Below are positions 1,092 through 59,684 of a stretch of DNA of 64,000 nt, piece by piece. The notes under the pieces were generated by a model. It was not told where the DNA came from, did not search any database, and worked only from the letters and a program-made list of their open reading frames with translations. The DNA lies in IMG/VR virus record IMGVR_UViG_2623620512_000003, positions 114 through 64,113 of that record. One strand, given 5' to 3'. Source of the DNA: a virus (lineage: Duplodnaviria; Caudoviricetes). Positions within the stretch are counted from its first letter, which is position 1. The number at the start of each line of letters is the position of its first letter. Made by a program: the position numbers and the translations under genes.

Positions 1092-2347
1092 GCAAGACAG
1101 AGAGAAGACAACTGACTGCCACAGTATATAACGAATGTTCGCATACCCGCCTCGATGAGGTCACTGAGTGGCTGAATGCCAACTATGTGATTCGGGTCAA
1201 CCTCCTTGACCGCAGCAAGGTATCGCTGAGTCCCACGGAGGACTGCACCTTTCATTATGAGTATCCGGTCACGGAGGATGACATCCTTATTCATGCTTTC
1301 GCAGAGGAGGTGAAAATTCCGCGTAGTCTGCTGAAGGCGATACTGGCGAGTCCTAATCACATGCATTCCTTCAATCCCATAAAGGATTATCTGGAATCGC
1401 TGCGGGGGAAATATAAGGGTCCCTCGCAGATTGACATGTTATGTGCCTCGCTGCATTCGCCTAAGGAGACGGAGGAGTCAGCAAAGAGAACGAGCCATCT
1501 CCTGCGCAAGTGGCTCATTGCTACTGCTGCCTGTGCAATGGGAATCCGTCAGAACGACGTCGCCCTGGGGCTCGTCGGCGACAAGGCGGGTATCGGTAAG
1601 ACGTCCTTCTTTGAGATGCTGGTGCCGCCATGTCTCAATGAATATTATCAGGTGGCTCAGAAGGACGAGCGACTGTTCTCTATGCCCAACGGCTTCACGC
1701 AGCGTTTTATACTGAATTTCGATGAGTTCGCGGCCATCGGCAAGCACAACGAGGAGCTTTTCAAGATGTATATGTCGGCCAGCGAGATAGAAATCAAGCG
1801 CCCAGGATCCCGCTACGCAGAGAAGGCTCCGCGAGTGGCTTCCTGCTGCTTCACTTCTAATAAGAATCAGCGCATGGGTGGTTTCCTCAGCAAACCGGAC
1901 GCTGGTCTCATGCGTCGTCTAGCTGTCATCGAGGTGGATTTTATCGATGACTGCCGCAAGCGTCTTGACGTGGACCAGCTCTGGGCAGAGGCTGTCATGC
2001 TGCTCGATGGCCAGTATGACCCTCAATGGTCACAGCAGGAGTACCGACAGTTCGTGGACGAAAACCGCCAGTACGTCATCGAGACGAACGCTCTCCGCCT
2101 TATCCGTATCTACTATCGTAAGCCGGAGGAAGGCGAAGAGTGTCAGTTCATGACAGCCATGGAGGTCGTGCTGCAGCTGAAGAAGGAAAGGAAGATTTCC
2201 TCGGCCATGCAACAGGTCAACGAGGTGACTGTCGGCCAGGCGCTCACGGCCTTAGGCTATAAGTATTATACGAGGCGCTTCCCAGGGAAGACGCCTTATC
2301 ATGGTTATGACATCGTACCACTGTACGAAGCTCAGGGAAAAAAGTAG
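1088..2347 (+). CDS. VirE/VapE-family P-loop protein (helicase-like)
   Basis: FNPIKDYL, GDKAGIGKT, LNFDEF and DQLWAEA motifs; start overlaps previous stop. Confidence 0.75.
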   Translation: MSKTERRQLTATVYNECSHTRLDEVTEWLNANYVIRVNLLDRSKVSLSPTEDCTFHYEYPVTEDDILIHAFAEEVKIPRSLLKAILASPNHMHSFNPIKDYLESLRGKYKGPSQIDMLCASLHSPKETEESAKRTSHLLRKWLIATAACAMGIRQNDVALGLVGDKAGIGKTSFFEMLVPPCLNEYYQVAQKDERLFSMPNGFTQRFILNFDEFAAIGKHNEELFKMYMSASEIEIKRPGSRYAEKAPRVASCCFTSNKNQRMGGFLSKPDAGLMRRLAVIEVDFIDDCRKRLDVDQLWAEAVMLLDGQYDPQWSQQEYRQFVDENRQYVIETNALRLIRIYYRKPEEGEECQFMTAMEVVLQLKKERKISSAMQQVNEVTVGQALTALGYKYYTRRFPGKTPYHGYDIVPLYEAQGKK

Positions 2348-2380
2348 TATCATTTTGAAAGTTTTGAATATTTAGAGTTG

Positions 2381-2418
2381 AAGTCCGTTGGTTTGTGAAA
2401 ATCGGCGGACTTTTTTTT
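2381..2418 (+). terminator. Intrinsic terminator after replication genes
   Basis: aagtccgttggttt-gtga-aaatcggcggactt stem followed by a T-run. Confidence 0.75.
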
Positions 2419-2551
2419 GAAGCGATCTTTTTTATTTTCCGCGTCCACACATTATTTATATATAAGTTTCCCTCACCTTCGTGAAATCTTCAAAAAATGA
2501 AGATTGATAGTTAAAAACAATGCGCGAAAATTTTTCGAATCCTTTTTACCG

Positions 2552-2761
2552 CACTTGCTACACTTGCTACAAATGAGTACAAAAGCACCGCCATCCCTTT
2601 ATTTATCATCATCTCCAAGTAGCAACTATTATCCTCTCTACCCTCTCGAACCGCTTGTTTTGCCATGTTGCTACAAGGTACTACAATCTTTATTCTGCTA
2701 CATCAAAACACTCTTAGAATCCCCTGTACATCGGCATTTCTGCTGTTGTAGCATGTAGCAA
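2552..2761. repeat. TGCTAC/GTAGCA direct and inverted repeat cluster, putative replication origin
   Basis: cacttgcta tandem at 2552-2572; further copies near 2619, 2669, 2696; inverted tgtagcatgtagca near 2747-2760. Confidence 0.5.
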
Positions 2762-2769
2762 GAAGGTAT

Positions 2770-3452
2770 ATCACCACTTTTTTCTTTTCTTCCCACATAT
2801 ATTTTTTTTCATTGTATGGCTGCATCATCTATAGGCGTTCTAATTGTCCTAGCATCTAATGGTATGGTTCCGACATCTTTACTATAGTAGTTGGCTTACC
2901 TGTTACCTTCACATTTTCTATCCGGCTTTCACCTTTTTGAAGTCCTGCATAACGAATTTTCCTGTTTAACGTGACGCCCTCCTTTTTGGTGTACCAGACT
3001 TTTCCCGCTGCAAATTTAATGCTCGCCGTGCCCTGCAAGTACTGGTCACAAGTTCCCGATGTCTGCAGAAATTTTCCGGCAACCTTCCATCATTTGCGTG
3101 AGTCCACGAAAATGATGGTATTCCATAAAATTTCCTGGCCATTCCTTGCCTTTAAGCACTTCCCTCGCCCAATTTCCTAGGCATCGTAAAAAGTCCTCAA
3201 CACAGAGGGCATCACTTGAAGTTAAACAATTAAATTCATAAAGTTATGCAGAACAATATTTCATCAAAGTTTCAAAGCCTCGCTAAAGAGGAAAAGAATT
3301 ATCTCGGTAAGCTCTCTTTTCAGAAGATGTCAGTTGAGTATTATATGAATGATTGCAAGGACAGTCATCCCGCCGTTTACGTAGGTACATACGCCAAGTA
3401 CAATGATGGAAGTCTCTTTGGTATGTGGGTTGATATGGTAAAGTGTGGTGAT
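2770..3452. promoter_or_regulatory. Fold-back element 1: long imperfect inverted repeat whose right arm runs into ardA
   Basis: Reverse complement of 2770-2981 matches 3205-3452 in collinear blocks; central hairpin core shared with element 2. Confidence 0.75.
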
Positions 3453-3860
3453 TATGACACATTCATGGAAGTATGCCACAGCCTGCATGCTGATGAAGAA
3501 GATCCAGAGCTGATGTATCAGGATTACGAGTGTTTCCCCAGTTCATGGTATTCCGAAAGCGGTATCGATGAAGATACATTCGATAGAATCATCGAGTTCA
3601 CAGAGTTGGATGATGATGACAGGGATGCTTTCGAGGAGTTCTCGGATGCTTTCGGTAATGATTGCATTGAAAGCTTCCGTGATCGCTACATGGGCAAATG
3701 GGATTCTGAGAAGGATTTCGCTGAGCACATCGTTGATGAGTGCTACAATCTGGATAAGATGATGGGAAGTCTCGCATCATACTTCGATTACGAAGCATAC
3801 GCTCGTGATCTCTTTATCGATGATTACTATTTCACCAATGGCTATGTGTTCAGGAGATAA
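3246..3860 (+). CDS. ardA: Antirestriction protein ArdA (DNA mimic, type I R-M inhibitor)
   Basis: VYVGTYAKYNDGSLFGMW, DPELMYQDYE and YFDYEAYARDL motifs; very acidic. Confidence 0.9.
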   Translation: MQNNISSKFQSLAKEEKNYLGKLSFQKMSVEYYMNDCKDSHPAVYVGTYAKYNDGSLFGMWVDMVKCGDYDTFMEVCHSLHADEEDPELMYQDYECFPSSWYSESGIDEDTFDRIIEFTELDDDDRDAFEEFSDAFGNDCIESFRDRYMGKWDSEKDFAEHIVDECYNLDKMMGSLASYFDYEAYARDLFIDDYYFTNGYVFRR

Positions 3861-3921
3861 TCCTGGCACATAGTCTCTTTTCTCGATTTTTTTTCGTATC
3901 TTTGCATCTCAATTCATACAT

Positions 3922-4551
3922 ATGAGCAAGTATATTTCAGAAAAAACACTGAGAACCATCCAAATAAGGAATGCAAAGAGTAGAAGCCAGATAATGCGAA
4001 CTTACTGGATAGAACTGGTATGCAGAATAGCTATTACTTACCAGCATTATTTTGATATGCGAAAGACTGGAGAAGTCTCAACTATAAATGCAACTGTTCA
4101 AGAAATCGAGAAAAAAATTGATTTCGCTAACTCGGTTTTCGACATTGACATTACGCTTTCTGACATATATGATTTCCAGCGTAGAAGTGTTGATAGCAGC
4201 ATCCAACAGTACGAGCAATACAAGAAAATCCTGGAATTCCAAGCTAACGATATTTTCAAGCCTAAATTAGTGGATATGCTGTGCAAGGAGTTGTTCGAGG
4301 AAGATGGTGAAAATCCTATTAACACTTTCATCTTTGGATATTACAGTGAAGTTGCTATCTTGATACTAGATTACATGTGCGAAGGTTTGGACTATGATAC
4401 ATTTATGAAGAATCTATTGGCTATCAAACTAGTCCCACATCAAAAGCCCATCGATGGAACAATTCTAAGAAGAATGATTAGAACTGGCGATAAATGGGAA
4501 AAGCGCTATGCCAAACTCTTCAAAGAAGAACGAGCTAAAGGAAATATATAA
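3922..4551 (+). CDS. Hypothetical protein (moron with its own promoter)
   Basis: 209-aa ORF preceded by TATCTTTG at 3897. Confidence 0.6.
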   Translation: MSKYISEKTLRTIQIRNAKSRSQIMRTYWIELVCRIAITYQHYFDMRKTGEVSTINATVQEIEKKIDFANSVFDIDITLSDIYDFQRRSVDSSIQQYEQYKKILEFQANDIFKPKLVDMLCKELFEEDGENPINTFIFGYYSEVAILILDYMCEGLDYDTFMKNLLAIKLVPHQKPIDGTILRRMIRTGDKWEKRYAKLFKEERAKGNI

Positions 4552-4554
4552 AAT

Positions 4555-4893
4555 ATGACACTTCGAGAATTAATTATTTCCGTAGATTCTGAGCAGTACA
4601 ACGATTCATTGTTGTACCAGAAGCTCCGCGAGACGAAGCCTGAATATGGCGCCAGCCGACATATTCAGGTAACTGCAGTTCGCGGTGACATTGTCGTTAC
4701 GAACTGTCACGTCGGCTCACTGGGTGATATCCTCACCTATCCTATCGATGTCGCTCCTGAGTTGAATATCTCGAAGGTGCAGCTGCTGGATGCCATCCTT
4801 CACGAGCTTTCCTCAGAGGGCTTCACCGACGAAGAGCAGGATGAGTTCTGGGATGACTTCGACAACCTTCAGAAAGCAAAGATCATCCGATGA
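4555..4893 (+). CDS. Hypothetical protein
   Basis: 112-aa ORF closely spaced with neighbours, acidic C-terminus. Confidence 0.6.
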   Translation: MTLRELIISVDSEQYNDSLLYQKLRETKPEYGASRHIQVTAVRGDIVVTNCHVGSLGDILTYPIDVAPELNISKVQLLDAILHELSSEGFTDEEQDEFWDDFDNLQKAKIIR

Positions 4894-5126
4894 CCGACTA
4901 CGATTCCATATGGCGCACGCAGGATGAAATCCGGACGGTAGTGAATGCCGTTCTGGGTGAATGCATCTGGAATCTTAATTGGAACGACCCTCGGATGGCC
5001 ATCGAACTGGAACTGACCTTAACGCTCGACGACGATGAAATCGACAATCTTTGCTGCCAGTTCCCCATCACTGCAGACTACGATGGTGTAGGTTCGAGAG
5101 GGTCTAAATTCACGTTCTACTTATAA
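4890..5126 (+). CDS. Hypothetical acidic protein
   Basis: 78-aa ORF with ATGA overlap. Confidence 0.6.
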   Translation: MTDYDSIWRTQDEIRTVVNAVLGECIWNLNWNDPRMAIELELTLTLDDDEIDNLCCQFPITADYDGVGSRGSKFTFYL

Positions 5127-5813: not shown

Positions 5814-6236
5814 ATGAGTAAGTGCTTATCTCTCCCTGGTATCCAGAAGGTCTGGTATATCCCCTGCAACCGTCTCCCCGACGACGTGGTCTATCGTGCC
5901 GTCGCAGGAATCCCTATTTCACTTCAAGAGACGCCCACCATTATCACATTGAATGGTGAAGCGGTCTGTGAAGTGGAACAGTCGTTCGATAACAACAGTT
6001 ATATAGAGAAGGCGAAGCTACAGTTCCTGACGCTGGACGACGTGCCGGCCGACCAGCATCCGACGTTCGTCATCAAGACAGCGAACAATGAGCTGTATCT
6101 GCTGGGAGCAAAGGAGCGGCCATACCCCACCGTCAAAATCACCAGTTCTACGGGTCAGCCTGATGGTGATGCCTCCGTCAGAAAGTACGAGGTTTCCTTC
6201 ACGGCAAGGAAAGCCCTGGCACTTTGTACTGGGTGA
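5814..6236 (+). CDS. Phage hypothetical protein
   Basis: ATG 5814 chosen inside ORF 5673..6236; lies just upstream of the head genes. Confidence 0.6.
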   Translation: MSKCLSLPGIQKVWYIPCNRLPDDVVYRAVAGIPISLQETPTIITLNGEAVCEVEQSFDNNSYIEKAKLQFLTLDDVPADQHPTFVIKTANNELYLLGAKERPYPTVKITSSTGQPDGDASVRKYEVSFTARKALALCTG

Positions 6237-6285
6237 TTTTCCTCACTCCTAAAGCTCCATAAGTGGCAAAGAGGCGTATTAGTCC

Positions 6286-8654: not shown

Positions 8655-9608
8655 ATGCCTGATTGTTCATCAGTACAGAAATCGCTCGCGTGGTGCCAAG
8701 GTCGCCCCGAGCTGCCCGGCGTCAAGCGCCGTATCTACTATATTTCAAAGTACGACGTACTTCAGTGGCCCAAACTTCTTCACGACGCAAACGGCCGACT
8801 GACATCTTCTTCGTATGCGGGTGACTTCGTTCTCCGTGCCGACAAGAAGTGGAAGTACATCGATATCATCTCCGACAAGTCGCAGCTGACTTCTGAGGCG
8901 CAGGGCGAATATCCCTCGCAGACGCAGCTGAACAAGCTGGTGGCCGTTCATCCCGGTGTGGGAAAGGAGGCTTCCGAGGCTGCTGCATACCTCAATAACA
9001 ATGACAACGTGTTCCTCGTCGAGAACATGCATGGTGATTTCCGCGTCGTAGGCTCTGACAAGTGGCCCACCAAGACGACTGTCGCCCAGGATCTGGGACA
9101 GGGCGCTACTGGTACCACTTCTACCACTATCAACGTGGAAGCTTCTGACGAGTGCCCCGCTCCTTTCTATGCAGGAAAGATTGCTACTGAGGACGGTGAC
9201 ATCAACCCTGACGGAAACCCTATCCAGGACACAAGTAGCGACGATAGCGGTAACAGCCAGAACAGTTCCTCTGCATCAGGTCCGGTTTACGACAGCAAGG
9301 TAGTTATCAACGGACAGGCGTACACTGTTTCAAAAGGCGGCACTATCAACGTCGAGGGCAATATCACCTCAATAAAGTTTACCGGTAAGAATATGGCATT
9401 CCTTTCATATTACGACGGAGCTGGTATGCCTTCTGAAATTACAATCAGCGGAGACGGCACCTCGGCTACACTCAGCGAGAAACTTACTGCCCCTGGCTCT
9501 GTAACGATTTATCGGAAGGAGACTGCAAATGCTGCAGAGGAAGAATGGTTCTATATCAAACTGACCAAGAGCAGCTCATCGAGCGAAGGTGGCCCAGTAA
9601 ATCCCTAG
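8655..9608 (+). CDS. Putative major tail (tube) protein with Ser-rich linker and C-terminal beta-rich extension
   Basis: Position after capsid; about 185-aa N-terminal domain, DTSSDDSGNSQNSSS linker, then an extra domain. Confidence 0.5.
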   Translation: MPDCSSVQKSLAWCQGRPELPGVKRRIYYISKYDVLQWPKLLHDANGRLTSSSYAGDFVLRADKKWKYIDIISDKSQLTSEAQGEYPSQTQLNKLVAVHPGVGKEASEAAAYLNNNDNVFLVENMHGDFRVVGSDKWPTKTTVAQDLGQGATGTTSTTINVEASDECPAPFYAGKIATEDGDINPDGNPIQDTSSDDSGNSQNSSSASGPVYDSKVVINGQAYTVSKGGTINVEGNITSIKFTGKNMAFLSYYDGAGMPSEITISGDGTSATLSEKLTAPGSVTIYRKETANAAEEEWFYIKLTKSSSSSEGGPVNP

Positions 9609-19754: not shown

Positions 19755-22556
19755 ATGAATAAACAACAACTAGCAGCAAAGATATGGGCATCAGCAAATA
19801 AGATGCGTTCTAAGATTGAAGCTAATGAATATAAGGACTATATTCTTGGCTTTATCTTCTATAAATTCCTGTCTGACAAAGAAGTCAGATTTGCTACTAC
19901 TGAGGCAGCAATCTCAGTAGAGGACCTTCCAAAGTATCTTCAAGAGAGCGACGATGAGGAGCAAGCCGTAATGGTGGAGTATTTCCGCAATAATTTGGGA
20001 TATTTCATTTCTTACGATAACCTTTTCACCACTTGGCTTGACAAAAAGAGAGATTTTGACGTGAAGAACGTTTCAGATGCATTGTCTGCTTTTGAACGTC
20101 TTATACATCCAACCCATCAGAATGTTTTCAAAAACATCTTTAATACTCTTGAAGTTGGCTTGAAGAAACTGGGGTCTACCTCTAAGGATCAGACAGCTGC
20201 CATCAAAGGTTTGCTGAAATTGATAAAAGACATACCGATGGACGGTAAACAGGACTATGATGTGCTTGGTTTCATCTACGAATATCTGATTGGAAAGTTT
20301 GCTGCTAATGCCGGCAAGAAGGCAGGCGAGTTCTATACTCCACATGAAGTCTCAGTCTTGATGTCTGAAATCGTGGCTGATCACCTGAAAGACAGGAAGC
20401 ATATTGAGATTTATGATCCAACGAGCGGTTCTGGCTCATTACTGATAAACATAGGCAAAGCACTTTCCAAATATATGACCGATGAGAACGGCGTAGTCTA
20501 TTATGCTCAGGAATTGAAGGAAAATACCTACAACCTGACACGTATGAACTTAGTAATGCGTGGCATCATACCATCCAACATCTTTGTCCGCAACGGTGAT
20601 ACGCTGAAAAAGGATTGGCCTTTCTTTGAAGATGGGCCGGACGGCACATACGCTGACGACACGTACAAATATCATAGTGTAGATGCCGTGGTCAGTAATC
20701 CTCCATATTCCCAACCATGGGAAGCTAAGAATAAGAATAATGACCCTCGCTTCAAGGAATTTGGCGTAGCCCCCAAAGGAAAAGCTGATTATGCATTCCT
20801 CTTGCACGACCTCTACCACCTGAAAGGCGATGGAGTGATGACCATTGTATTGCCTCATGGTGTGTTGTTCCGTGGAAGCCCAGATGATGGCAGTGAAGGT
20901 AGCATCCGTAAGGAACTTGTTGAGGGTAATCATATAGAGGCAATTATCGGTTTACCTTCCGACATCTTCTATGGTACAGGCATTCCAACACTCGTCATGG
21001 TACTACGCAAGCAGCGAGCTGACGAGGGCATATTACTTGTGGACGCTTCAAGCTGCTACATAAAACAAGGCAAGAAGAATGTGCTCCGCACTTCTGACAT
21101 AAAGCGAATAGTCGACGTGGTGAGAAGTCGTGAAAGCAAAAAAGGATTCTCTTGTGTGGTAAGTAAAGAGCTGATTCGCAAGAATGACTACAACCTCAAT
21201 CTTCCCAGGTACATCAGTTCTACCAAACAACCCGAAACATGGGACATTTATGCCACAATGTTCGGGGGTATTCCTAATAGCGAAATCGACTTATTGAATA
21301 ACAAATGGGAGGCAATGCCTGGTCTCAGGCAACACCTCTTTACATCGGATGACACGCCATTTAGTCAAGTGGCTCATGATGATATTGAGAACGAGATAAT
21401 ACGGCATCCCTCTGTAATAGCCTATAAGCATGAGTTCGCACGAGCCATGCAGGGATTTGATGAATACCTTTTTGAGGAACTGCTACGACATCCAAAGAAA
21501 GTTAACATCACTGCTGAGGAACCAAAGATCAGCGAAGAGATTTTTTCTCGTCTGAAGGATGTGAAACTCATTGACTCGTACGATGCTTATCAGCTTCTCG
21601 ATGACGAGTGGACTACCATTGCTACCGACCTAGAAATTATACAGACCGAGGGTATGGATGCCTGCTTCGTTGTTGATCCCAACATGGTTACAAAGAAAAA
21701 GGATAACAAGGAAATTGAGGTTCAGGAAGGCTGGCTGGGCAGAGTTCTTCCATTTGAAATAGTGCAGCAGATGTTCCTCAAAGGGGATTACGATGCCCTT
21801 TGTGAAAAGCAGAAGAGTCTGAACGGTGTCTCCAACGACCTCACAGAATTGGTAGCATCAATAGCAGGATATGAGGATGGTGCGTCTGTGCTTAATGATG
21901 ACAACAATGCATTCGTAGCCAAGGAGGTTTCCGCAAAACTTGACTCTATCTATGAAAGCATCGACACAGACGAGACCAAGGCTCTGGAAGAATATCTCAC
22001 CCTGACAAAGAAAAACGAAAAACTGGCTTTTATTGCCAGTCACAAGGATGTTGATTGGAGTATCGGTGTCCCCAACAAAGATAACACATACAGTGCTAAA
22101 GCCGTACAGGCTATAATCAAGGATATCCGATCTAAAACTGAGTTTGAAGAAGATACTTTTGAGTATGACCTCGTAAAGGCAGAACAGTTGTTGGAGGAAG
22201 AAAAAAGGCTTAAAAGCGAATGTAAGAAAGATGCAGACGCCCTCCACCTCCTTACCAAGAAAACCATAGAGGAGGATTTAAACACAGAGGATGCCATCAA
22301 CATTCTTCAACAGAAATGGATAGCACCAGTGGTGAAGAATTTAGCTGCGATGCCAGACTGTGTAGTATTGGAACTATGTACCAGCATAAAAGCCCTAATA
22401 GACAAGTATGCCACCACAATGGTCGAGACCGAGCAGAGCATTAATGAGACAGAGCGCGAGTTAAACAAGATGTTGAGTAATCTTGTTGGCAATGATTTTG
22501 ACATGAAAGGTATAGGCGAGATTCAGAAACTTTTTAACCACAATGATTATGAGTAA
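19755..22556 (+). CDS. hsdM: Type I R-M methyltransferase subunit (long form)
   Basis: GEFYTP, DPTSGSGSLL, NPPY; about 400-aa C-terminal extension. Confidence 0.95.
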   Translation: MNKQQLAAKIWASANKMRSKIEANEYKDYILGFIFYKFLSDKEVRFATTEAAISVEDLPKYLQESDDEEQAVMVEYFRNNLGYFISYDNLFTTWLDKKRDFDVKNVSDALSAFERLIHPTHQNVFKNIFNTLEVGLKKLGSTSKDQTAAIKGLLKLIKDIPMDGKQDYDVLGFIYEYLIGKFAANAGKKAGEFYTPHEVSVLMSEIVADHLKDRKHIEIYDPTSGSGSLLINIGKALSKYMTDENGVVYYAQELKENTYNLTRMNLVMRGIIPSNIFVRNGDTLKKDWPFFEDGPDGTYADDTYKYHSVDAVVSNPPYSQPWEAKNKNNDPRFKEFGVAPKGKADYAFLLHDLYHLKGDGVMTIVLPHGVLFRGSPDDGSEGSIRKELVEGNHIEAIIGLPSDIFYGTGIPTLVMVLRKQRADEGILLVDASSCYIKQGKKNVLRTSDIKRIVDVVRSRESKKGFSCVVSKELIRKNDYNLNLPRYISSTKQPETWDIYATMFGGIPNSEIDLLNNKWEAMPGLRQHLFTSDDTPFSQVAHDDIENEIIRHPSVIAYKHEFARAMQGFDEYLFEELLRHPKKVNITAEEPKISEEIFSRLKDVKLIDSYDAYQLLDDEWTTIATDLEIIQTEGMDACFVVDPNMVTKKKDNKEIEVQEGWLGRVLPFEIVQQMFLKGDYDALCEKQKSLNGVSNDLTELVASIAGYEDGASVLNDDNNAFVAKEVSAKLDSIYESIDTDETKALEEYLTLTKKNEKLAFIASHKDVDWSIGVPNKDNTYSAKAVQAIIKDIRSKTEFEEDTFEYDLVKAEQLLEEEKRLKSECKKDADALHLLTKKTIEEDLNTEDAINILQQKWIAPVVKNLAAMPDCVVLELCTSIKALIDKYATTMVETEQSINETERELNKMLSNLVGNDFDMKGIGEIQKLFNHNDYE

Positions 22557-23763
22557 GAAGTTGGTACCAGACATCAGATTCAAAGGATTTGATGGAGAAT
22601 GGAATGAGTCGCTGCTGAATGAGAAACTTATTCCTTCGAGAGAAAAGAATATACAAGAACTCTTTTCGAAGGATGAAGTGCTTTCTGTGTCAGGGGATTA
22701 TGGTGTTGTGAATCAATTAAAATTTAAGGGAAGGTCATTTGCCGGTGTGTCTGTAGCTCCATACGGAGTAGTACATACGAATGATGTTGTCTATACAAAG
22801 TCACCGCTCAAAAAACAACCTTATGGCATTATTAAGACCAATAAGGGTGTAGATGGCATAGTTTCCACGCTCTACGCTATTTATTCTTGTGCCCAAGGAG
22901 TCTATCCTAATTTCGTAGAAGATTATTTCAATTCAGACGATAGATTGAATTCATATTTGCGTCCACTGGTTAGGAAAGGTGCAAAGAATGATATGAAGAT
23001 TTCTTTGGAAGGGGCATTGGCGGGGAAGGTGTGGTTTCCAGAATATAAAGAACAGAAGATGATTTCCAACTTCTTTGAGATTCTTGCTAAAGAAATATTA
23101 TCGGTTCAAACGAAGTTGGATAAGCTCTATGCCTTGAAGAAAACGATGCTTGTCAAAATGTTTCCGCAAGGTGATGCCCTTTTGCCTGAAATAAGGCTCA
23201 ATGGTTTTAAGGGGGAATGGAAATGTTCTCCTGCTAAAGAAATCTTTAAATCTGTAGCTGACAAGAATCATCCTGACCTTCCCGTACTGTCTGCCTCTCA
23301 AGAACTTGGTATGATAAAACGTGATGAGGTTGGCAAAATCGTAGCGCACGACAAATCTAACGAAGCAACATATAAAAGGGTTCTTCCTGGGCAGTTTGTT
23401 ATACATCTAAGATCGTTTCAGGGCGGATTCGCACATTCTGCCTACGAAGGTATTACTTCGCCAGCATATACTGTGATGGACTTTAAAGAGAAAGAATTAC
23501 ATGATGATATGTATTGGAAATATGTTTTCATGACAAAGATGTTTATTGTCAGATTGGAAACGGTTACTTACGGTATTCGTGATGGCAGAAGTATTAGCTT
23601 TGCCGATTTTTCCTCTTTGGAAATGAAATATCCAGATGTTAGAGAACAAGCAGCCATAGGTCTGTATTTCCAAACACTGGACAAGCAACTTCGTTTATAT
23701 GAACAGAAGCTGTCGAAACTAAAGAATCTGAAGTCAGCATTTCTTAAAAACATGTTTGTGTAG
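22543..23763 (+). CDS. hsdS: Type I R-M specificity subunit
   Basis: Two TRDs separated by conserved P.IRF/L.GF.GEW and EQ..I..FF/YF blocks. Confidence 0.92.
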   Translation: MIMSKKLVPDIRFKGFDGEWNESLLNEKLIPSREKNIQELFSKDEVLSVSGDYGVVNQLKFKGRSFAGVSVAPYGVVHTNDVVYTKSPLKKQPYGIIKTNKGVDGIVSTLYAIYSCAQGVYPNFVEDYFNSDDRLNSYLRPLVRKGAKNDMKISLEGALAGKVWFPEYKEQKMISNFFEILAKEILSVQTKLDKLYALKKTMLVKMFPQGDALLPEIRLNGFKGEWKCSPAKEIFKSVADKNHPDLPVLSASQELGMIKRDEVGKIVAHDKSNEATYKRVLPGQFVIHLRSFQGGFAHSAYEGITSPAYTVMDFKEKELHDDMYWKYVFMTKMFIVRLETVTYGIRDGRSISFADFSSLEMKYPDVREQAAIGLYFQTLDKQLRLYEQKLSKLKNLKSAFLKNMFV

Positions 23764-23766
23764 CCT

Positions 23767-26700
23767 ATGAAATTTGATGAAGAAAAATCATTTGAGGATG
23801 CCCTTGTTGCGCTGCTTGCTCCTTCGAAAGGATGGAACAAGAAGTTATTGATGTACCCCACAGAGGAGGATTTAATAGCGAATTGGGCACAGATTCTCTT
23901 TGAGAATAATCGCGAGATTGACTGTCTGAACGAGCAACCGCTGACAGACACAGAGATGGAACAGGTTCTTCAACAAGTGTATAATTTGAAGACTCCCATC
24001 AAATTAAATGGTTTCATTAATGGCAAAAGTGTGGCCATAATACGTGACAACAAGAACGATAAATTACACTTTGGAAAGGAAGTTCGTCTGAAAATCTATG
24101 ACCGCAACGAGATAGCCGGTGGCAAAAGCCGTTATCAAATTGCACGTCAGCCCAAATACAATAAGAAATGTCCTGTATTGCAAAATCGTCGTGGCGACAT
24201 TACACTTCTCATCAATGGTATGCCTGTGATACATATAGAACTGAAGCGTTCAGACACTCCTATCAGTAAGGCCATACATCAGATAGAGGAATATAGTCAT
24301 GAGGGCATTTTTACAGGAATCTTCTCTTTAGTACAGGTGTTTGTGGCGATGACCCCAGAAGAAACACTATACTTCGCCAATCCCGGTCCTGATGGAAAAT
24401 TCAATCCAAGTTACTACTTCCACTGGGCAGATTTCAACAACCAAGTAATCAATGAGTGGGAGAAGATTGCAGGCTTGTTATTATCCATTCCAAAGGCACA
24501 TCAACTAATAGGATTTTACACCGTAGCAGACAAATCGGACAACACGTTGAAAGTGATGCGTAGTTATCAGATTGAGGCAGCTGAGAATATCAGTGATGTG
24601 GTGAGGGATATTCACTGGGGCGAGAATAATCTCCGTGGTGGTTATATATGGCATACCACAGGAAGCGGCAAAACAATGACCAGTTTCAAGACCGCATGTC
24701 TCATAGCTGAAGCAGACAAAGCTGATAAGGTGATTTTCCTAGTTGACAGAATAGAATTAGCCACCCAGTCGACATTGAAATACCAGGGGTATGCAGATGC
24801 AGAAGGCGATGTTGTAGATACCGATGATTGCGAAGACCTGATAAGCAAGTTGAAGAACACAGAAGATGACTTGATCGTGACCTCTATTCAAAAGATGAGC
24901 CGAATAACTATTGGTGAATCAAAGAAGCGCGACCGCGACATTGAGAAGATTCAAAAGAAGCGAAAAGTGATCATTATCGACGAATGTCATCGCGATACTT
25001 TCGGTGATATGCTCATAAACATCAAGCAAACGTTTCCCGAATCGGTATTGTTTGGTTTTACAGGCACGCCTATTGATAAGGAGAACCAAAAGAAGCTGAA
25101 CACAACAGCCACCGTATTTGGTAACGAATTACACAGATACACATTGGCAGATGCCATAACCGATAAAAATGTTTTGGGATTTGACCCACGAATGGTGCTT
25201 ACTTACAAAGACAAAGATTTACGCAAAACCGTAGCACTGGAAAAAAGTAAGGCTAAGTCAGAAGAAGAAGCAATAAGCCATAAAGCCAAGGCCAAAGTGT
25301 TTTACCACTATATGAATGATGTGCCGATGGCTGGATATACGGACGAAACAGGCAAATACCATTCCGGCATAGAAGACCATATTCCATCCTCGCAATATAA
25401 GCTTGGCAAGCACCGAATCGCAGTTGTAAATGACATAAAAGACGGATGGCTGACACTAAGCCGCAACAACAAATTTCATGCGATACTGGCCACATCGAGT
25501 ATAGTCGAAGCTATAGCATATTACAGATTGTTCCGTGAACTCATGCCTTCGTTAAAAGTGACGGCACTTTTTGACTCTTCCGATAATCACAATGAGACTT
25601 CTATTGAAAAGATTGATGGACTGAAGGACATAATTCTTGATTATAATAGTTTCTATAGACAGAAGTTCTCGATTAGCAATTATGGCATGATGCGTAAGGA
25701 CATATCAGCCAGGATGTCGCATACAGAGCCTTATCTTGGACTACACAAAACGCCTGAGATGCAAATCAATCTGCTGATAGTAGTTGATCAGATGCTTACG
25801 GGTTTCGACTCAAAATGGGTAAACACTTTGTACTTAGACAAGATGCTGGAGCAGGAGCACCTGATACAGGCTTTTAGCCGTACCAACAGATTGTTTGGAC
25901 CAGACAAACCTTTCGGAAACATACGCTTTTATCGCAGACCGCACACTATGAAGCGTAATATAGACGAAGCAATATCACATTATAGCGGTGACCGCCCTCA
26001 AGGGTTGTTCGTGGAGCAGTTGGAATATAACCTGCACAAACTCAATGAGATATTCACAGACATTGATCATCTGTTCTCTACTTCTGGCATCAAGAAATTT
26101 GAAAGATTGCCAGATGATATAAGTGAGAGGCAAGAATTTGTAAAACTCTTCAACCAGTTTAATAAGTATTTAGAGGCTTCCAGGATTCAGGGATATATTG
26201 CATTCGAGAAGATGCAGAAGGTGGAGAAAGAGGAAGGTACAACAGTGATGGTTGAAATGTTGTTCGACGAAAACCAGTATAATGCCTTGCTTCAGCGCTA
26301 CAACGAGCTCTCGCATGGGGGCGGAGGTGGAGGCGATGAAGACGTGCCATACGACATTGAAACATATATTACGGAAATAGATACAGGCAAAATAGATGCC
26401 GACTACATGAACCACAAGTTTGACAAATGGCTCAAGGTACTTGCACAGCCTGATGTGACAGAAGAAGAGAAAAATGCTACGCTCGACGAACTGCACAAAT
26501 CCTTTTCCACTCTGACACAGGAAGAGCAAAACTACGCATATATCTTCTTGCACGATATAGAAAACGGTGATGTAAAACTAAAGCCTGGCAAGACTTTGCG
26601 TGATTACATAACCGAATATCTGACTCGCTCCCAGGATCGCCGTATTCACCATTTTGCAGAGACATTCGGTTTGGATGAGCAGCAACTGCGAGACATTATG

Positions 26701-26904
26701 CTGTCTGGGCCAACTACTGAAAATATTGACATTAGGGGAAGATTTACAAATCTTAAGAAAAGTGCAAATATAAATCTCGCCAAAAATTATTTTGAACAAG
26801 AGGAAAGGAGCAAATTTCCCACCCCTATAGTGATAGTGAAACTGGATAATCTACTTAGAAAATTCATTTTGGGAGAGGCTGATGAGAATTTTAACGACGA
26901 TTAG
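23767..26904 (+). CDS. hsdR: Type I R-M restriction subunit
   Basis: D...IELK nuclease motif, HTTGSGKT, DECH, FTGTP, QAFSRTNR. Confidence 0.95.
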   Translation: MKFDEEKSFEDALVALLAPSKGWNKKLLMYPTEEDLIANWAQILFENNREIDCLNEQPLTDTEMEQVLQQVYNLKTPIKLNGFINGKSVAIIRDNKNDKLHFGKEVRLKIYDRNEIAGGKSRYQIARQPKYNKKCPVLQNRRGDITLLINGMPVIHIELKRSDTPISKAIHQIEEYSHEGIFTGIFSLVQVFVAMTPEETLYFANPGPDGKFNPSYYFHWADFNNQVINEWEKIAGLLLSIPKAHQLIGFYTVADKSDNTLKVMRSYQIEAAENISDVVRDIHWGENNLRGGYIWHTTGSGKTMTSFKTACLIAEADKADKVIFLVDRIELATQSTLKYQGYADAEGDVVDTDDCEDLISKLKNTEDDLIVTSIQKMSRITIGESKKRDRDIEKIQKKRKVIIIDECHRDTFGDMLINIKQTFPESVLFGFTGTPIDKENQKKLNTTATVFGNELHRYTLADAITDKNVLGFDPRMVLTYKDKDLRKTVALEKSKAKSEEEAISHKAKAKVFYHYMNDVPMAGYTDETGKYHSGIEDHIPSSQYKLGKHRIAVVNDIKDGWLTLSRNNKFHAILATSSIVEAIAYYRLFRELMPSLKVTALFDSSDNHNETSIEKIDGLKDIILDYNSFYRQKFSISNYGMMRKDISARMSHTEPYLGLHKTPEMQINLLIVVDQMLTGFDSKWVNTLYLDKMLEQEHLIQAFSRTNRLFGPDKPFGNIRFYRRPHTMKRNIDEAISHYSGDRPQGLFVEQLEYNLHKLNEIFTDIDHLFSTSGIKKFERLPDDISERQEFVKLFNQFNKYLEASRIQGYIAFEKMQKVEKEEGTTVMVEMLFDENQYNALLQRYNELSHGGGGGGDEDVPYDIETYITEIDTGKIDADYMNHKFDKWLKVLAQPDVTEEEKNATLDELHKSFSTLTQEEQNYAYIFLHDIENGDVKLKPGKTLRDYITEYLTRSQDRRIHHFAETFGLDEQQLRDIMLSGPTTENIDIRGRFTNLKKSANINLAKNYFEQEERSKFPTPIVIVKLDNLLRKFILGEADENFNDD

Positions 26905-30829: not shown

Positions 30830-32030
30830 ATGCATTGAAAAATATCTCTTTTTTTACCATCATCATCTTATTCAAAAGGTATGCATGGCTCTGATGGGCC
30901 TCATTGTACGCCTGACGTTCTTCAAGTACCAGGATGTCACCATCCATTGTTTGCTCACTCTTGATGGACTTCACTTTACGTAAGTGGTTATTTGCTTCCA
31001 CATCATTTCTATAGCCATACTCCTTTCGTGATTTCTTCTGCTACCGACATCGATGTGTTATCTGCCTATAAAAGGTAGTAGTCATCCCCTCTGCTCTCTG
31101 TGGTAATAAATAGGTAATCCGCATCATACCACATACATGAAGAGGTAGCCATCCCAATCAGAAGAGGTACACCCTGGATATTGCCTAACAAGGTAGAGGC
31201 GAATAGAGCGCTTACTGTACCCGCTGCAGGTGAATGTTTGCGCATTCTGTGTCATTATCATTCTCCACGCTTGTTGGACTTCTTTTTTTAGCTACCTATA
31301 GGCCCTTTACTTATTTTTCCTTTGCAAATTTAGCGCAAGCCCGTGCCCTGCAAGTACTGGTCTCTATAGTTCCCGATTCCTGCACATAAATCACAGCAGC
31401 CTTCCGCATTTTCTTCTTCACGTCAGAGCCTAAAGAAAATGGGGTATTCCATGATTTTTGCTGGTAATTCCTTGCATTTACGCACTTTCCTCTTGCTGCT
31501 CTTCATTGCACGTAAAAATTACAAAAGCTCCTCGGAGCTAAATTAACAAGAAGTCAAACAATTAAAAAAATAAGAATTATGACACAGAATGTACAAACAT
31601 CAGTTTTCACCCACAGCAGGTTATACAGCAAGCGCTATTATGCAGGCAATATCTACAGTGTAGTTATCAATTGTGAGGATGGCGAGTATTACGAGTATGA
31701 GGTAGAAGCGGACACATTCGCTAAAGCCACAGAGATAGCAGAGAGCATGGCCAATGATCTGATGGCAGATATTACATTCATCGAAGTCTATAAGGCAGCA
31801 TAAATAAGTATCACAAAATAGAGTATTAACAATTTAAAGAAATAAGTATTATGGAAGCAAAAGTTATTATCGTTACAGAAGTGAAGTCTAACAAGAGTGA
31901 GAACAATGTTTGGATGGTGGCCATCACAGGTGAAGAACAAGGTCAGGCGTACTGCAAGAGTCCCTACAAGGCCATGCGTTTCGCTTTTCTCTTAAAGAAG
32001 CAGACAGGATTCCATATCGAGGATGCATCC
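30830..32030. promoter_or_regulatory. Fold-back element 2: about 1.1-1.2 kb imperfect inverted repeat whose right arm covers two genes
   Basis: Reverse complement of 30874-31293 is collinear with 31536-31988; core homologous to element 1. Confidence 0.8.
31579..31803 (+). CDS. Small acidic hypothetical protein
   Basis: 74-aa ORF with AT-rich initiation region after the fold-back core. Confidence 0.7.
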   Translation: MTQNVQTSVFTHSRLYSKRYYAGNIYSVVINCEDGEYYEYEVEADTFAKATEIAESMANDLMADITFIEVYKAA

Positions 32031-32228
32031 CTCAAGGCTCTCTCAGCGGAAATTGCTAAGGAAAAAGTAGCATCTGCTGAATCCGAGGCTGAGAAGCCTG
32101 CAGAGCAGGAGCCTCAGGTAGAGGAAAAGCCAAAGAAGCAGCGCAAGCCTCGCGCAAAGAAAGCCGAGGCTGAGTCTCAGGCATTAGCTCAGGTTGCCGA
32201 GCAAAAAGGATTGATAGCCTTCCTGTAA
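31851..32228 (+). CDS. Hypothetical protein with charged low-complexity tail
   Basis: 125-aa ORF in tandem with 31579..31803. Confidence 0.7.
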   Translation: MEAKVIIVTEVKSNKSENNVWMVAITGEEQGQAYCKSPYKAMRFAFLLKKQTGFHIEDASLKALSAEIAKEKVASAESEAEKPAEQEPQVEEKPKKQRKPRAKKAEAESQALAQVAEQKGLIAFL

Positions 32229-58216: not shown

Positions 58217-59354
58217 GGATGTGCAGATTCTCCGTGACCGACTCCTCAACGTTCTTCTTAAGAATCTTGGCGTATATCTGAGTTGTCGCAATGTTCTTAT
58301 GTCCGAGCATTCTCTTCACCTTCTCAATGGGGATGTTATAGGAAAGCATCAGCGTAGCAAAGGAGTGACGGGCGATATGGCAGGATATCGGTTTGTTAAT
58401 GTGTAAGTCTGCCTCCATGACGTGCATATAGTCATTTGCTTTCTGGTTGCTGATCAAGGGCAATTTATAATTGTACTTCTTCAGCACTTCCATGGCTGGA
58501 GGCAGAATCGGAGTGAAAAAATTGGAGCCCGTTTTCAAGCGGCTGCCGTCAATATAGGTATAGTCCTGGTGTTGCTCCGTCATCGTATCAAAATTGAACG
58601 CAGCCATATCACAATAGGCCAGTCCTGTATATGCCATGAATACGAACAAGTCACGCGCACGCTCGATATGTCCCGTATACTTGGCATTACGCATCTTCAG
58701 GAGCTCTTCTTCGATTAGTGGATTACGCTCCTTGTTCTTTCCCTTGGGGAATTTCACATGGGCATATGGATTTGATGAAATCATCTCCAGTTGCCACAGG
58801 ATCTTTGTGTATTTGGATACCTTCTTATGATAGCCATTGATGGTATAGTCCGTTCTGGTGTTGTTCCTACGAAGCCAGGCATCATAGGCACAGACATTTG
58901 CAGGGGTAAGGTCAGCCAGTGTCATCAGGATACCGGACTCTTCGAGACTGTCGAATACGACATTAAAACCCTTGACTGAGTTCTTGGCAAGGTTTTCACT
59001 CTTCATATGTTCACGGCAGAATTCCACGAAGCTCTGGCGCAGGTCATTTCCATTATAAATATTAGAAGGAGCTTGTTTGGGATGTTCATCCGTGAAGATG
59101 TGCTTCGTGAAGTTGTCAATGGTCATTTCTTCATTCAGCATCTCCATGGCACTGATAATCTGTTCATAGTGCTTTTTCCTTGATTGGATGTTCTTACCAA
59201 GGGCGACGGACTCCCATGAGGCTGAGTCTGACTCTCCAACTACCTCATACTTCTTTTCACCTCTTGAAAGGTAAATGTACAACTCAATTTTTCCAGTTCC
59301 ATTCTTTTCTGCCTGTCCCTTGCGGTCGAAGACAATTTTCACGTTTTGCTTCAT
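58209..59354 (-). CDS. int: Tyrosine integrase
   Basis: YTGLAYCD, HIARHSFAT, LGHKNIATTQIYA; adjacent to tRNA. Confidence 0.93.
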   Translation of the reverse strand: MKQNVKIVFDRKGQAEKNGTGKIELYIYLSRGEKKYEVVGESDSASWESVALGKNIQSRKKHYEQIISAMEMLNEEMTIDNFTKHIFTDEHPKQAPSNIYNGNDLRQSFVEFCREHMKSENLAKNSVKGFNVVFDSLEESGILMTLADLTPANVCAYDAWLRRNNTRTDYTINGYHKKVSKYTKILWQLEMISSNPYAHVKFPKGKNKERNPLIEEELLKMRNAKYTGHIERARDLFVFMAYTGLAYCDMAAFNFDTMTEQHQDYTYIDGSRLKTGSNFFTPILPPAMEVLKKYNYKLPLISNQKANDYMHVMEADLHINKPISCHIARHSFATLMLSYNIPIEKVKRMLGHKNIATTQIYAKILKKNVEESVTENLHILK

Positions 59355-59643: not shown

Positions 59644-59679
59644 AAAATCGACGAACCTTATATGTTCGTCGATTCTTTT
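59644..59679. terminator. Hairpin 3' of tRNA
   Basis: aatcgacgaac-cttatat-gttcgtcgatt. Confidence 0.65.
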
Positions 59680-59684
59680 GCTTG

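What the first reader, a model, noticed from the sequence alone, without database searches (positions are those of the whole stretch)
2770..3452. Second, independent fold-back arm mirrors the 5' third of ardA
Seen: the reverse complement of 2981->2770 gives gagggc.tcac, gttaaaca, aaattc, gttatgcag, aaagcc, ggtaagc, aagatgtc, aggaca, tacaatga, tatgtggg, gtggtgat, collinear with 3205-3452 (ardA leader and roughly the first 69 codons). This arm is unrelated to the 31-kb arm, so each arm matches its own gene. That argues for a selected architecture rather than an accident. Established: ArdA must act immediately on DNA entry and lies behind ssDNA promoters in plasmid leading regions. Inference: these are entry-phase anti-defence expression units, making 31579..31803 (small, acidic) and 31851..32228 candidate new anti-defence proteins.
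Basis: partly seen in the sequence, partly recalled or inferred. Interest (0 to 1): 0.88.

Follow-up and report, generated by a model that had tools for sequence, protein, structure and literature searches.

The report
Fold-back hairpin promoter cassette before ardA
The stretch is the left half of a long imperfect DNA palindrome whose centre is a conserved hairpin carrying a host-type promoter that points away from the anti-restriction gene ardA, a layout that would read ardA only from folded single-stranded DNA.

Summary
The reverse complement of 2770-2981 aligns with 3205-3452 (score 34 against 12.3±1.8 in shuffles, 0/500). The mirror runs on to 2501, matching ardA to 3751.

Between the arms lies a ~195-nt module (2991-3186), repeated at 31314-31510. 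It is itself an imperfect hairpin with compensatory base changes. The only Bacteroidetes-type promoter box in the 900-nt gap (TAAATTTG, 3018→3011) points away from ardA.

I found 79 distinct copies by pattern, and more with a covariance model in 21 of 151 sampled Prevotellaceae genomes.
- The intact gene is always on the same side, about 70-125 nt away.
- None of 59 copies with long flanks is flipped.
- Cargo includes ArdA, SSB, PcfK-like and methylase-type genes.
- Some copies lie in conjugative elements.

Best reading (about 0.5): a Prevotellaceae counterpart of Frpo/ssi single-strand promoters. In a fold-back of the template strand, the "wrong-way" promoter faces the real gene's template.

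The queried arm is a broken mirror copy of ardA that lengthens the stem. Its conservation tracks ardA's, but its mismatches look neutral. The main gap is that this element is a tailed dsDNA prophage, so the source of single strands is unknown.

The scan had already noted the 31-kb copy in this genome (e1-6224087).

The parts
2380..2421 (+). Intrinsic-terminator-like hairpin plus T-run that ends the upstream replication operon (VapE-like gene 1088-2347), before the left arm begins
   Evidence: 15-pair stem at 2380-2413 followed by a T-run.
2501..2988 (-). Left arm: a degenerate mirror copy of the ardA leader and about the first 169 codons, broken by stops and frameshifts.
   Evidence: score 60 against 16.2±2.3, 0/300; no intact ORF; protein-level score of left arms to ArdA is 26-45, against 689 or more for right arms.
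2991..3186 (.). Conserved central module. It is an imperfect hairpin in its own right; a second copy lies at 31314-31510.
   Evidence: direct-repeat score 92 against 12.4±1.9; compensatory changes; ssDNA fold -60.4 against -33.0±3.8 kcal/mol.
3011..3018 (-). Bacteroidetes-type -7 box TAAATTTG (matches TAnnTTTG), pointing away from ardA. In the predicted fold it is paired at 6 of 8 positions with 3171-3181.
   Evidence: it is the only such box between 2200 and 3896 on either strand; pair list; present in 77 of 79 copies.
3036..3041 (-). -33-like TTG (minus strand TACTTG), 17 nt upstream of the -7 box. In the fold it is paired with 3143-3148, part of the conserved ATTCCTTGC.
   Evidence: helix 10 has 6 invariant pairs. 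The motif CTGCAAGTA was part of my search pattern, so its invariance among the 79 copies is by construction.
3087..3118 (.). Tip hairpin of the module (CCATCATTT...AAAATGATGG). The loop length varies among copies and the stem co-varies.
   Evidence: inverted repeat I10; alignment..
3187..3245 (+). ardA leader with a small co-varying hairpin (about 3194-3209). Under the single-strand model, the predicted start of the ardA transcript is near 3188-3192.
   Evidence: the hairpin keeps its stem with different sequences (CCTC/GAGG, GCTCC/GGAGC, GCCCC/GGGGC, AGCAC/GTGCT); partner positions. The start site is inferred.
3246..3860 (+). ardA, the intact cargo gene. Its first 3198-3751 form the right arm.
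   Evidence: Pfam ArdA E=1.2e-33; dN 0.02-0.25 against dS 0.29 to over 2 among 7 orthologues..
30874..31318 (-). Left arm of the second cassette: a mirror copy of 31514-31988 (leader, all of gene 31579-31803, and the start of 31851-32228)
   Evidence: score 115 against 17.5±2.9.
31314..31510 (.). Second copy of the module, in the same orientation. Its -7 box TAAATTTG runs 31332→31325 on the minus strand.

Best explanation
Window 2501-3751 is one long imperfect palindrome, built around a conserved hairpin-promoter cassette that Prevotellaceae mobile elements place in front of establishment and anti-defence genes.

The cassette carries a good host-type promoter (-33 TTG, -7 TAnnTTTG). It sits on the arm of the hairpin far from the gene, so in duplex DNA it fires away from ardA.

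If the template (minus) strand is single-stranded and folds back, the promoter's non-template strand lies opposite the template strand of the real gene. RNA polymerase would then start near 3188-3192 and make ardA mRNA. This is the geometry of Frpo/ssi single-strand promoters of conjugative plasmids. Expression would be limited to times when this strand is single-stranded: transfer, or in this phage probably replication.

The queried arm (2770-2981, really 2501-2988) is a mirror duplicate of ardA that has lost all coding capacity and prolongs the stem past the start codon. It probably arose by template-switch extension of the palindrome. It may serve as a stand-in non-template strand.

Shown: the palindrome, its conservation and co-variation, the promoter's fixed orientation, the cargo spectrum, and copies inside conjugative elements.

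Inferred: activity on single strands, the start site, the origin of the arms and their role.
For: (1) Predicted fold.
- The minus strand of 2940-3260 folds as ssDNA into one hairpin: -60.4 against -33.0±3.8 kcal/mol, 0/100 shuffles.

(2) The hairpin is kept by compensatory changes.
- On 20 copies, 71.9% of cells are paired against 65.0±0.5 in shuffles (0/500) and 39-45% when slid. 43 of 106 pairs have double changes.
- On 35 distinct, more distant copies, 84.0% are paired against 66.4±1.1. 9 of 9 pairs of the central helix have double changes.

(3) The promoter.
- The only TAnnTTTG box in the ardA upstream gap faces away from ardA, and likewise at 31 kb.
- It is kept in 77 of 79 pattern-found copies and 24 of 29 model-found copies.
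- The mirror position facing the gene is never a canonical box in the 20 aligned copies.
- Both boxes lie in paired stretches of the fold.

(4) No other promoter is in sight. A terminator at 2380-2413 ends upstream transcription. At 31 kb the upstream gene is on the other strand.

(5) Orientation is fixed. The intact cargo is on the same side in 59 of 59 copies with 400 nt or more of flank, and 0 are flipped. The ATG lies 68-127 nt from the module in 24 of 29 distant copies.

(6) Cargo matches that of plasmid leading regions: ArdA (4e-32), SSB (2e-16, 2e-13) and PcfK-like (1e-54); YodL and a methylase-type/DUF4942 protein in a contig with four co-oriented modules.

(7) Copies lie in conjugative elements.
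- L184 is next to DUF4134 x2 and TraG (8.5e-123).
- G140 is next to two ArdC-N genes.
- In G254:C1 and G278:C16, modules lie 23-52 kb from TraG and relaxase, on the same strand.

(8) ardA is under purifying selection in the phage clade, so it is used.

(9) Arm and gene are coupled.
- Column conservation of the left arm follows that of the right arm: r=0.30 (0/378 shifts) on a joint alignment, and r=0.19 (0/389) with the arms aligned apart.
- Matched changes in both arms across loci number 131 against 70±20 (6/300) for ardA, and 1970 against 803±151 (0/300) for the acidic-gene family.

From passages I read, known ssDNA promoters are ~300-nt hairpins with -35/-10 boxes in the stem, are inactive as duplex, and drive ssb, psiB, ardA and methylase genes (PMC11541004; PMC12672017).
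Against: - The element is a tailed dsDNA temperate phage. No stage with a free single template strand is known, so the key condition is unshown.
- The strand that folds is not resolved. The minus strand folds better in 20 of 20 copies, but shuffles show most of this is base composition, and z-scores are alike in the 11 of 20 copies tested.
- Arm mismatches show no wobble bias: 386 against 407 transitions of the two kinds, and 1364 transversions.
- Arm identity is flat at 0.6-0.69 along the arm. Both this and the mismatch spectrum look like neutral decay of a duplicate.
- The arm evolves at roughly a third to three quarters of ardA's synonymous rate, so constraint is at most weak.
- Fold energies of 320-350-nt windows are -46 to -72 kcal/mol. 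This is below the -75 threshold used for plasmid ssDNA promoters in PMC12672017.
- Palindrome homogenisation by template switching could mimic co-variation without any function.
- An RNA-library contig from a relative covers about 3036-3071 plus 3206-3350, which is upstream of the predicted start. It is at depth 4.3 and could be DNA.
Confidence: 0.5

Rival explanations
1. Inert relic. An old inverted duplication around an ordinary regulatory region is decaying. The outward promoter makes a leftward non-coding or antisense RNA in duplex DNA. ardA is read from a promoter that my consensus search does not recognise.
For: - The left arms are wholly broken as genes.
- The mismatch spectrum is neutral-like and arm identity is flat.
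- 6 of 7 ardA left arms form one clade behind a long stem (0.69), as expected for one old event.
- In L184 the same promoter faces a tra operon, so it may be an ordinary duplex promoter.
Against: - It does not explain why the promoter facing the broken copy is kept in 77 of 79 copies while the one facing the working gene is never canonical.
- It does not explain the compensatory changes inside the module.
- Mirror arms appear for four cargo lineages: phage ardA, L219 ArdA, SSB and the acidic gene.
- It does not explain the arm-to-gene coupling.
- Several hundred nt of junk would be unusual to keep across a phage clade whose ardA dS reaches 2.
Confidence: 0.2
2. RNA-level fold-back. A plus-strand transcript spanning arm, module and gene folds so that the arm hides the ardA start region (as in IS10 fold-back inhibition, recalled), or it makes double-stranded RNA for processing.
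For: The same palindrome would fold as RNA, at -92 to -131 kcal/mol. An RNA-library contig of a relative joins part of the module to ardA's 5' part.
Against: - A terminator at 2380-2413 stops upstream transcription, and there is no plus-strand promoter box between 2200 and 3896.
- At 31 kb the upstream gene is divergent.
- There is no excess of G-U over A-C mismatches on either strand in sequence-based arm alignments.
- The conserved outward promoter is left unexplained.
Confidence: 0.1
3. The folded single strand serves DNA transactions rather than mRNA synthesis. It could be a priming site for complementary-strand synthesis (like ssi/sso sites or the M13 minus-strand origin, recalled), or a folded recombination site of gene cassettes (like integron attC, recalled).
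For: - The hairpin has co-variation.
- Copies are co-oriented and repeated along elements: four in L172, pairs in many genomes, and two copies 28 kb apart here.
- The same module stands before unrelated genes.
- By passages read, Frpo transcripts also act as primers (PMC7736820; PMC12672017).
Against: The tight spacing to the cargo start codon (68-127 nt in 24 of 29) and the leader conserved with it point to gene expression. A priming role could coexist with the main reading. No recombinase is linked to the copies apart from element integrases.
Confidence: 0.1
4. Invertible promoter (inverton). Recombination between the arms flips the module so that the promoter faces ardA in a subpopulation.
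For: - Inverted repeats flank a promoter that faces the wrong way.
- 13 of 79 copies lie within about 150 nt of a contig or locus end, as happens at variable or repeated sites.
- Invertons are common in Bacteroidales (recalled).
Against: - 0 of 59 copies with long flanks have the module flipped relative to the intact gene.
- No inversion joint was found in the one DNA run laid, though it holds contigs only.
- The longest exact inverted words here are 8-9 nt.
- There is no serine recombinase, and only the prophage integrase 55 kb away.
- An inverton needs no internal palindrome with compensatory changes.
Confidence: 0.04

Closest known systems
Frpo / ssi single-stranded DNA promoters of IncF and IncI1 plasmids (F, ColIb-P9, pESBL)
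   Same: - Both are a long imperfect hairpin of a few hundred nt with host promoter boxes in the stem.
- By geometry, the boxes lie on the arm away from the gene, so the template of the gene is read only in the folded single strand.
- Copies are repeated and co-oriented before ssb, ardA, methylase and similar genes.
- Some copies lie in conjugative elements.
Sources: passages of PMC11541004, PMC12672017 and PMC7736820, and my.
   Different: - The boxes are Bacteroidetes-type (-33 TTG / -7 TAnnTTTG), not sigma-70 -35/-10.
- No sequence likeness was tested.
- The promoter is a full consensus that should also fire, outwards, in duplex DNA.
- The queried copy sits in a tailed dsDNA prophage.
- In four cargo lineages the stem runs on for 380-650 nt into the coding region as a broken mirror gene, which I have not seen described for Frpo.
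Single-strand origins of rolling-circle plasmids and the M13/f1 minus-strand origin (recalled, not read here)
   Same: Both are folded single strands that host RNA polymerase recognises as a promoter, and that work in one orientation only.
   Different: Those make short primers for DNA synthesis and have no cargo gene at a fixed distance. Here a leader and start codon follow at 68-127 nt.
Hairpin promoters of phage N4 virion RNA polymerase (recalled, not read here)
   Same: A phage uses a DNA hairpin, helped by SSB, to time early transcription.
   Different: N4 hairpins are 5-7 bp stems extruded from supercoiled duplex and read by a phage enzyme. Here the hairpin is a 150-700-nt imperfect palindrome with host-type boxes.
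Invertible promoters (invertons) of Bacteroidales (recalled)
   Same: Both have a promoter flanked by inverted repeats and facing away from a gene.
   Different: No flipped copy was found in 59. The segment between the repeats is itself a co-varying hairpin. The arms are gene-length and degenerate.
Quasipalindrome template-switch mutation and palindrome extension (recalled)
   Same: It would explain the repeated, lineage-specific creation or renewal of mirror arms around a hairpin.
   Different: It is a mutational process, not a function. Whether it acted here is inferred.

Membership tests
Frpo/ssi-type single-strand promoter | The single strand folds into a long imperfect hairpin, more stable than composition predicts | tested here: met
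   Searches give z of -7.3 and -6.8. One search gives z of -2.9 to -8.9 for the minus strand in the 11 of 20 copies tested. The 31-kb copy is weaker (z -2.5). Energies are below the -75 kcal/mol used in PMC12672017.
Frpo/ssi-type single-strand promoter | Host promoter boxes lie in the stem, on the arm 3' of the loop in the template strand, reading out of the hairpin base towards the cargo | tested here: met
   The -33 is nearer the loop and the -7 nearer the base. Both are in paired stretches. The cargo template is the opposing arm.
Frpo/ssi-type single-strand promoter | Sequence homology to known Frpo/ssi elements | not tested
   I held no Frpo sequence. Supplementary Table 2 of PMC11541004 lists them, but supplements were closed. 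Different promoter boxes make homology unlikely.
Frpo/ssi-type single-strand promoter | Lies in the leading region of a conjugative element, with the transferred strand as template | tested here: not met
   The window is a tailed prophage. Relatives of the module do lie in conjugative elements, but oriT and the transferred strand were not determined.
Frpo/ssi-type single-strand promoter | Active on single-stranded DNA and not on duplex DNA | not testable with these tools
   This needs in vitro transcription or 5' end mapping.
Inverton (invertible promoter) | Both orientations occur in populations | tested here: not met
   0 of 59 copies are flipped. There is no inversion joint in run X6, which holds contigs only.
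Inverton (invertible promoter) | A dedicated invertase is nearby | tested here: not met
   There is one tyrosine integrase at 58209-59354 and no serine recombinase.
ArdA anti-restriction protein (the cargo) | Match to Pfam PF07275 over its full length, above the curated cut-off | tested here: met
   117.4 bits against a cut-off of 27, profile positions 1-154 of 155.
Curated RNA family (Rfam 15) | Any match in 2200-3600 at E of 1 or less | tested here: not met
   0 matches.

The most novel reading that the evidence does not exclude
A tailed dsDNA prophage uses a promoter that works in two modes. On folded single-stranded template DNA (at replication forks or some entry intermediate) it reads ardA and a small acidic protein gene. 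On duplex DNA the same boxes fire outwards into a broken mirror gene, keeping the real genes silent in the lysogen, which carries its own type I restriction system. The gene-length mirror arm acts as a stand-in non-template strand that frees the 5' end of the mRNA for ribosomes. The cassette would be the Bacteroidota answer to Frpo, shared between conjugative elements and phages.
Probability: 0.3. Interest if true: 0.9.

Novelty: new variant of a known kind. Interest (0 to 1): 0.78.

Why it matters
Single-strand promoters are known from a few enterobacterial plasmid groups. My library searches found none described for Bacteroidota, and none in tailed phages.

If this cassette works as proposed, three things follow.
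- It gives a sequence-and-structure signature for finding establishment and anti-defence genes in Prevotellaceae mobile elements. A covariance model found copies in 21 of 151 sampled genomes.
- It would show that a dsDNA phage can tie anti-restriction to the single-stranded state of its DNA.
- It would explain how ardA and a type I restriction system coexist in one prophage.

The many unnamed small genes behind the cassette become a ready list of anti-defence candidates to test.

Tried and rejected
- A hidden gene in the arm: no intact minus-strand ORF in the window or in 6 relatives. Pfam finds nothing in the two short ORFs.
- A known RNA family: none.
- Phage records by blastn: no match.
- A 14-nt motif search gave 118 or more mostly chance loci. 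Only known relatives matched by blastn, so I dropped it for a 25-base gapped pattern.
- Strand choice from fold energies: the minus strand is better in 20 of 20, but shuffles of 11 of the 20 copies show this is largely composition. Unresolved.
- Wobble bias: the count on the W-derived structure (170 A-C against 106 G-U) is biased by how the structure was derived. The unbiased arm alignments show none.
- A gradient of identity along the arms: none.
- Reads: the runs hold contigs only. X15 and X16 gave identical tables and are probably one data set.
  - RNA-library contigs of a near-identical strain cover 3921-4973 and none covers ardA.
  - The joint 3071→3206 is a diverged stretch of a relative, not splicing.
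  - There is no inversion joint in DNA run X6.
- BLAST of L184's module region against five genomes that carry modules found nothing, because that copy is too diverged.
- I did not fold or search the two 31-kb proteins further, as another agent followed that locus. Pfam and PHROGs gave nothing above cut-off.
- Supplementary files of the papers were not opened. Supplementary Table 2 of PMC11541004 (Frpo sequences) could bear on the homology row.

Papers:
- PMC11541004, PMC12672017 and PMC7736820: passages found by term search only.
- All other titles: search listings only.
- Masai & Arai 1997, IS10, N4, sso/M13, attC and inverton facts are recalled.
Full report
**What is there**

ardA is at 3246-3860 (Pfam ArdA, E=1.2e-33). 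It follows a 900-nt gap after the replication genes: an AFG1/DnaC-like gene at 363-1091 and a VapE-like gene at 1088-2347.

It scores 34 against 12.3±1.8 in dinucleotide shuffles, 0/500.

The mirror does not stop there. revcomp(2450-2769) matches 3453-3860 on its own (29 against 13.8±2.3, 0/300). The full arms are 2501-2988 and 3198-3751. So the left arm is a mirror copy of the leader and about 169 of ardA's 204 codons.

It has stops in every frame. At the protein level, left arms score 26-45 against ArdA, where right arms score 689 or more (23 loci).

**The centre**

Between the arms lie about 195 nt (2991-3186) that are better conserved among relatives than the coding sequence. A second copy stands at 31314-31510 in the same orientation.

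That second copy is flanked by its own mirror. revcomp(30874-31318) against 31514-31988 scores 115 against 17.5±2.9. The arms of the two loci are unrelated to each other.

The module is itself an imperfect palindrome, and its tip is a small hairpin (3087-3118).
- Folded as single-stranded DNA, 2940-3260 forms one hairpin (-60.4 against -33.0±3.8 kcal/mol).
- The 31-kb copy is weaker (z -2.5).

**The promoter**

The only match to the Bacteroidetes -7 consensus TAnnTTTG between 2200 and 3896, on either strand, is TAAATTTG. It is on the minus strand (3018→3011), with TTG 17 nt upstream, and it faces away from ardA. The 31-kb copy is the same.

A terminator at 2380-2413 ends the upstream operon. 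ardA therefore has no recognisable promoter of its own. The next gene (3922) does have one, at 3897.

**How widespread**

A 25-base gapped pattern from the module found 19 stretches in viral contigs, 7 in species genomes (all Prevotella or Prevotellaceae by record title) and 59 in metagenome contigs. Together with the window's two copies, that makes 79 distinct copies.
- The outward -7 box is present in 77 of 79. The other two have TTACTTTG.
- Of the 67 copies with 150 nt or more on both sides, 64 have a significant flanking mirror (z of 6 or more).
- Of the 59 copies with 400 nt or more on both sides, 23 carry ardA and 33 carry the 73-74-aa acidic protein gene. The other 3 are one truncated module, one other cargo and one broken ardA.
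- In none of these is the intact gene on the promoter's side.

A covariance model of the module core (R1) matched 2 of 151 sampled genomes of the order and 21 of 151 of the family. Both counts include the seed genome.

In 24 of the 29 model hits I analysed, the outward box is present. Also in 24 of 29, a start codon follows at 68-127 nt.

**Cargo and context**

The cargo includes ArdA, SSB (five loci, two checked by Pfam) and a PcfK-like protein. 6 of the 10 proteins scanned have no family.

One metagenome contig holds four co-oriented modules about 3 kb apart. It also carries a YodL-like gene and a methylase-type gene with DUF4942.

Some copies sit in conjugative elements:
- beside DUF4134 x2 and TraG in L184;
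- beside two ArdC-N genes in G140;
- 23-52 kb from TraG and relaxase, on the same strand, in G254:C1 and G278:C16.

Wherever several copies share a stretch of up to about 35 kb, they are co-oriented.

**Structure is selected**
- On 20 copies, the long hairpin has 71.9% of cells paired, against 65.0±0.5 after shuffling partners (0/500) and 39-45% when partners are slid. 43 of 106 pairs have changes on both sides. That structure was derived from this window, which favours it.
- On 35 distinct, more distant copies aligned to the model, 84.0% are paired against 66.4±1.1. All 9 pairs of the central helix have double changes. That alignment is fitted to the model.
- RNAalifold found the central helix on its own.

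**Most likely mechanism**

In the folded minus strand, the arm that carries the promoter's non-template sequence lies opposite the minus strand of the leader and gene. That strand is the template of the real mRNA. The -33 is nearer the loop and the -7 nearer the base.

Polymerase bound there would read out of the hairpin base into ardA, starting opposite 3001-3004, which is near 3188-3192. In duplex DNA the same boxes drive transcription leftwards into the broken copy.

This is the logic of Frpo/ssi promoters. According to the passages I read, those are ~300-nt hairpins with -35/-10 boxes in the stem. They are inactive once duplex, and they drive ssb, psiB, ardA and methylase genes of plasmid leading regions.

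This reading also accounts for three things:
- the promoter facing the broken copy is the one that is kept;
- the opposite side is conserved but never a promoter;
- the spacing to the start codon is fixed.

I then tested its geometry, structure and cargo predictions myself.

**What the queried arm adds**

Most cargo genes have the hairpin with only 55-100 nt of flanking repeat, which ends before the start codon. Gene-length mirrors occur for the phage ardA, a second ArdA lineage (L219: 655 nt, 82% identity in aligned columns), SSB (about 380 nt, 78-80%) and the acidic gene.

Trees give two patterns. 6 of 7 ardA left arms form one clade (support 100, stem 0.69), which points to one old event. 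In the acidic family, left arms group with the right arms of their own sub-lineage, which points to renewal or gene conversion.

Arm and gene change together more than label-permuted controls: 131 against 70±20 (6/300), and 1970 against 803±151 (0/300). Left-arm conservation follows right-arm conservation (r=0.30 jointly aligned, r=0.19 aligned apart; no circular shift reaches either value).

Against selection for pairing:
- mismatches show no wobble bias and are mostly transversions;
- identity is flat along the arm;
- the arm evolves at roughly a third to three quarters of ardA's synonymous rate.

My reading is that the arms arise by template-switch extension of a hairpin-prone site. They are weakly maintained, perhaps because a longer stem gives polymerase a non-template strand past the start codon. 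This part is inference.

**Weak points**

The window is a temperate tailed phage. It has a Clp protease, a large terminase, a tape measure protein and an integrase. It also carries a type I restriction system at 19755-26904.

Such phages inject duplex DNA, so the single strand would have to come from replication or another intermediate. Nothing here shows that.

The folding strand is not resolved. The only RNA data are low-depth contigs.

ardA is nonetheless under purifying selection in the phage clade (dN 0.02-0.25, dS 0.29 to over 2), so the cassette must allow its expression somehow.

**Rivals**
- An inert relic with an unrecognised duplex promoter (0.2).
- An RNA fold-back (0.1). It is weakened by the terminator and the lack of a plus-strand promoter.
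- A priming or recombination site on folded single strands (0.1). This could coexist with the main reading.
- An inverton (0.04). It is weakened by 0 of 59 flipped copies.

**Novelty**

Searches for ssDNA promoters with Bacteroid* (0 papers), and for Frpo or single-strand promoters with phage or hairpin, gave no description of such an element in Bacteroidota or in tailed phages within the library held. I class it as a new variant of a known kind.

Noticed in passing
window 2550-2770: Iteron-like repeats of TTGCTACA / GTAGCAA (eight or more, on both strands) lie inside the decayed distal part of the left arm. They are conserved in 5 of 7 aligned relatives and replaced by other sequence in L005 and L006. 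They could be a replication origin or an operator next to the replication genes.
   Followed up: partly
window 2477-2497: A perfect 8-bp palindrome, AATCTTCA-AAAAA-TGAAGATT, is conserved in 5 of 7 relatives. No T-run follows it, so it looks more like an operator than a terminator.
   Followed up: no
window 19755-26904 and 3246-3860: One prophage carries a complete type I restriction-modification system (HsdM, HsdS, HsdR by Pfam) and ArdA, an inhibitor of that enzyme class.
   Followed up: partly
window 3897-4973: A canonical -7 box, TATCTTTG, sits at 3897. RNA-library contigs of a near-identical strain from rumen samples run from 3921 to 4973, so the two genes after ardA are probably transcribed there. 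Gene 3922-4551 has a weak, below-cut-off match to the Enc34 ssDNA-binding protein family (E=0.0017).
   Followed up: partly
L172 (metagenome contig), 456-598, 3509-3652, 6132-6274, 9446-9569: Four co-oriented copies of the module lie about 3 kb apart, each before a short operon. One operon holds a YodL-like protein and a 495-aa methylase-type protein with DUF4942.
   Followed up: partly
L184 373-536 and 874-5509: Here the module's outward promoter faces a conjugative tra operon (two DUF4134 genes, TraG) about 370 nt away. In this element the same boxes may drive tra genes in duplex DNA.
   Followed up: partly
13 of 79 module copies (for example L157, L174, L202, L211, L213): The contig or stored locus ends within about 150 nt of the module. 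Three ArdA-found viral contigs (L003, L004, L008) likewise start at or just before ardA. This is probably assembly breakage at the palindrome.
   Followed up: no
L144 3804-3911: In this copy the module's right half is replaced just after ATTCCTTGC by unrelated sequence. It has no mirror arms and no cargo at the usual distance, so it looks like a recombination scar.
   Followed up: no
window 59662-64000: Genes beyond the integrase (58209-59354) include a 749-aa protein with a weak DUF3987 match. Whether this end belongs to the prophage or to a neighbouring element was not settled.
   Followed up: no
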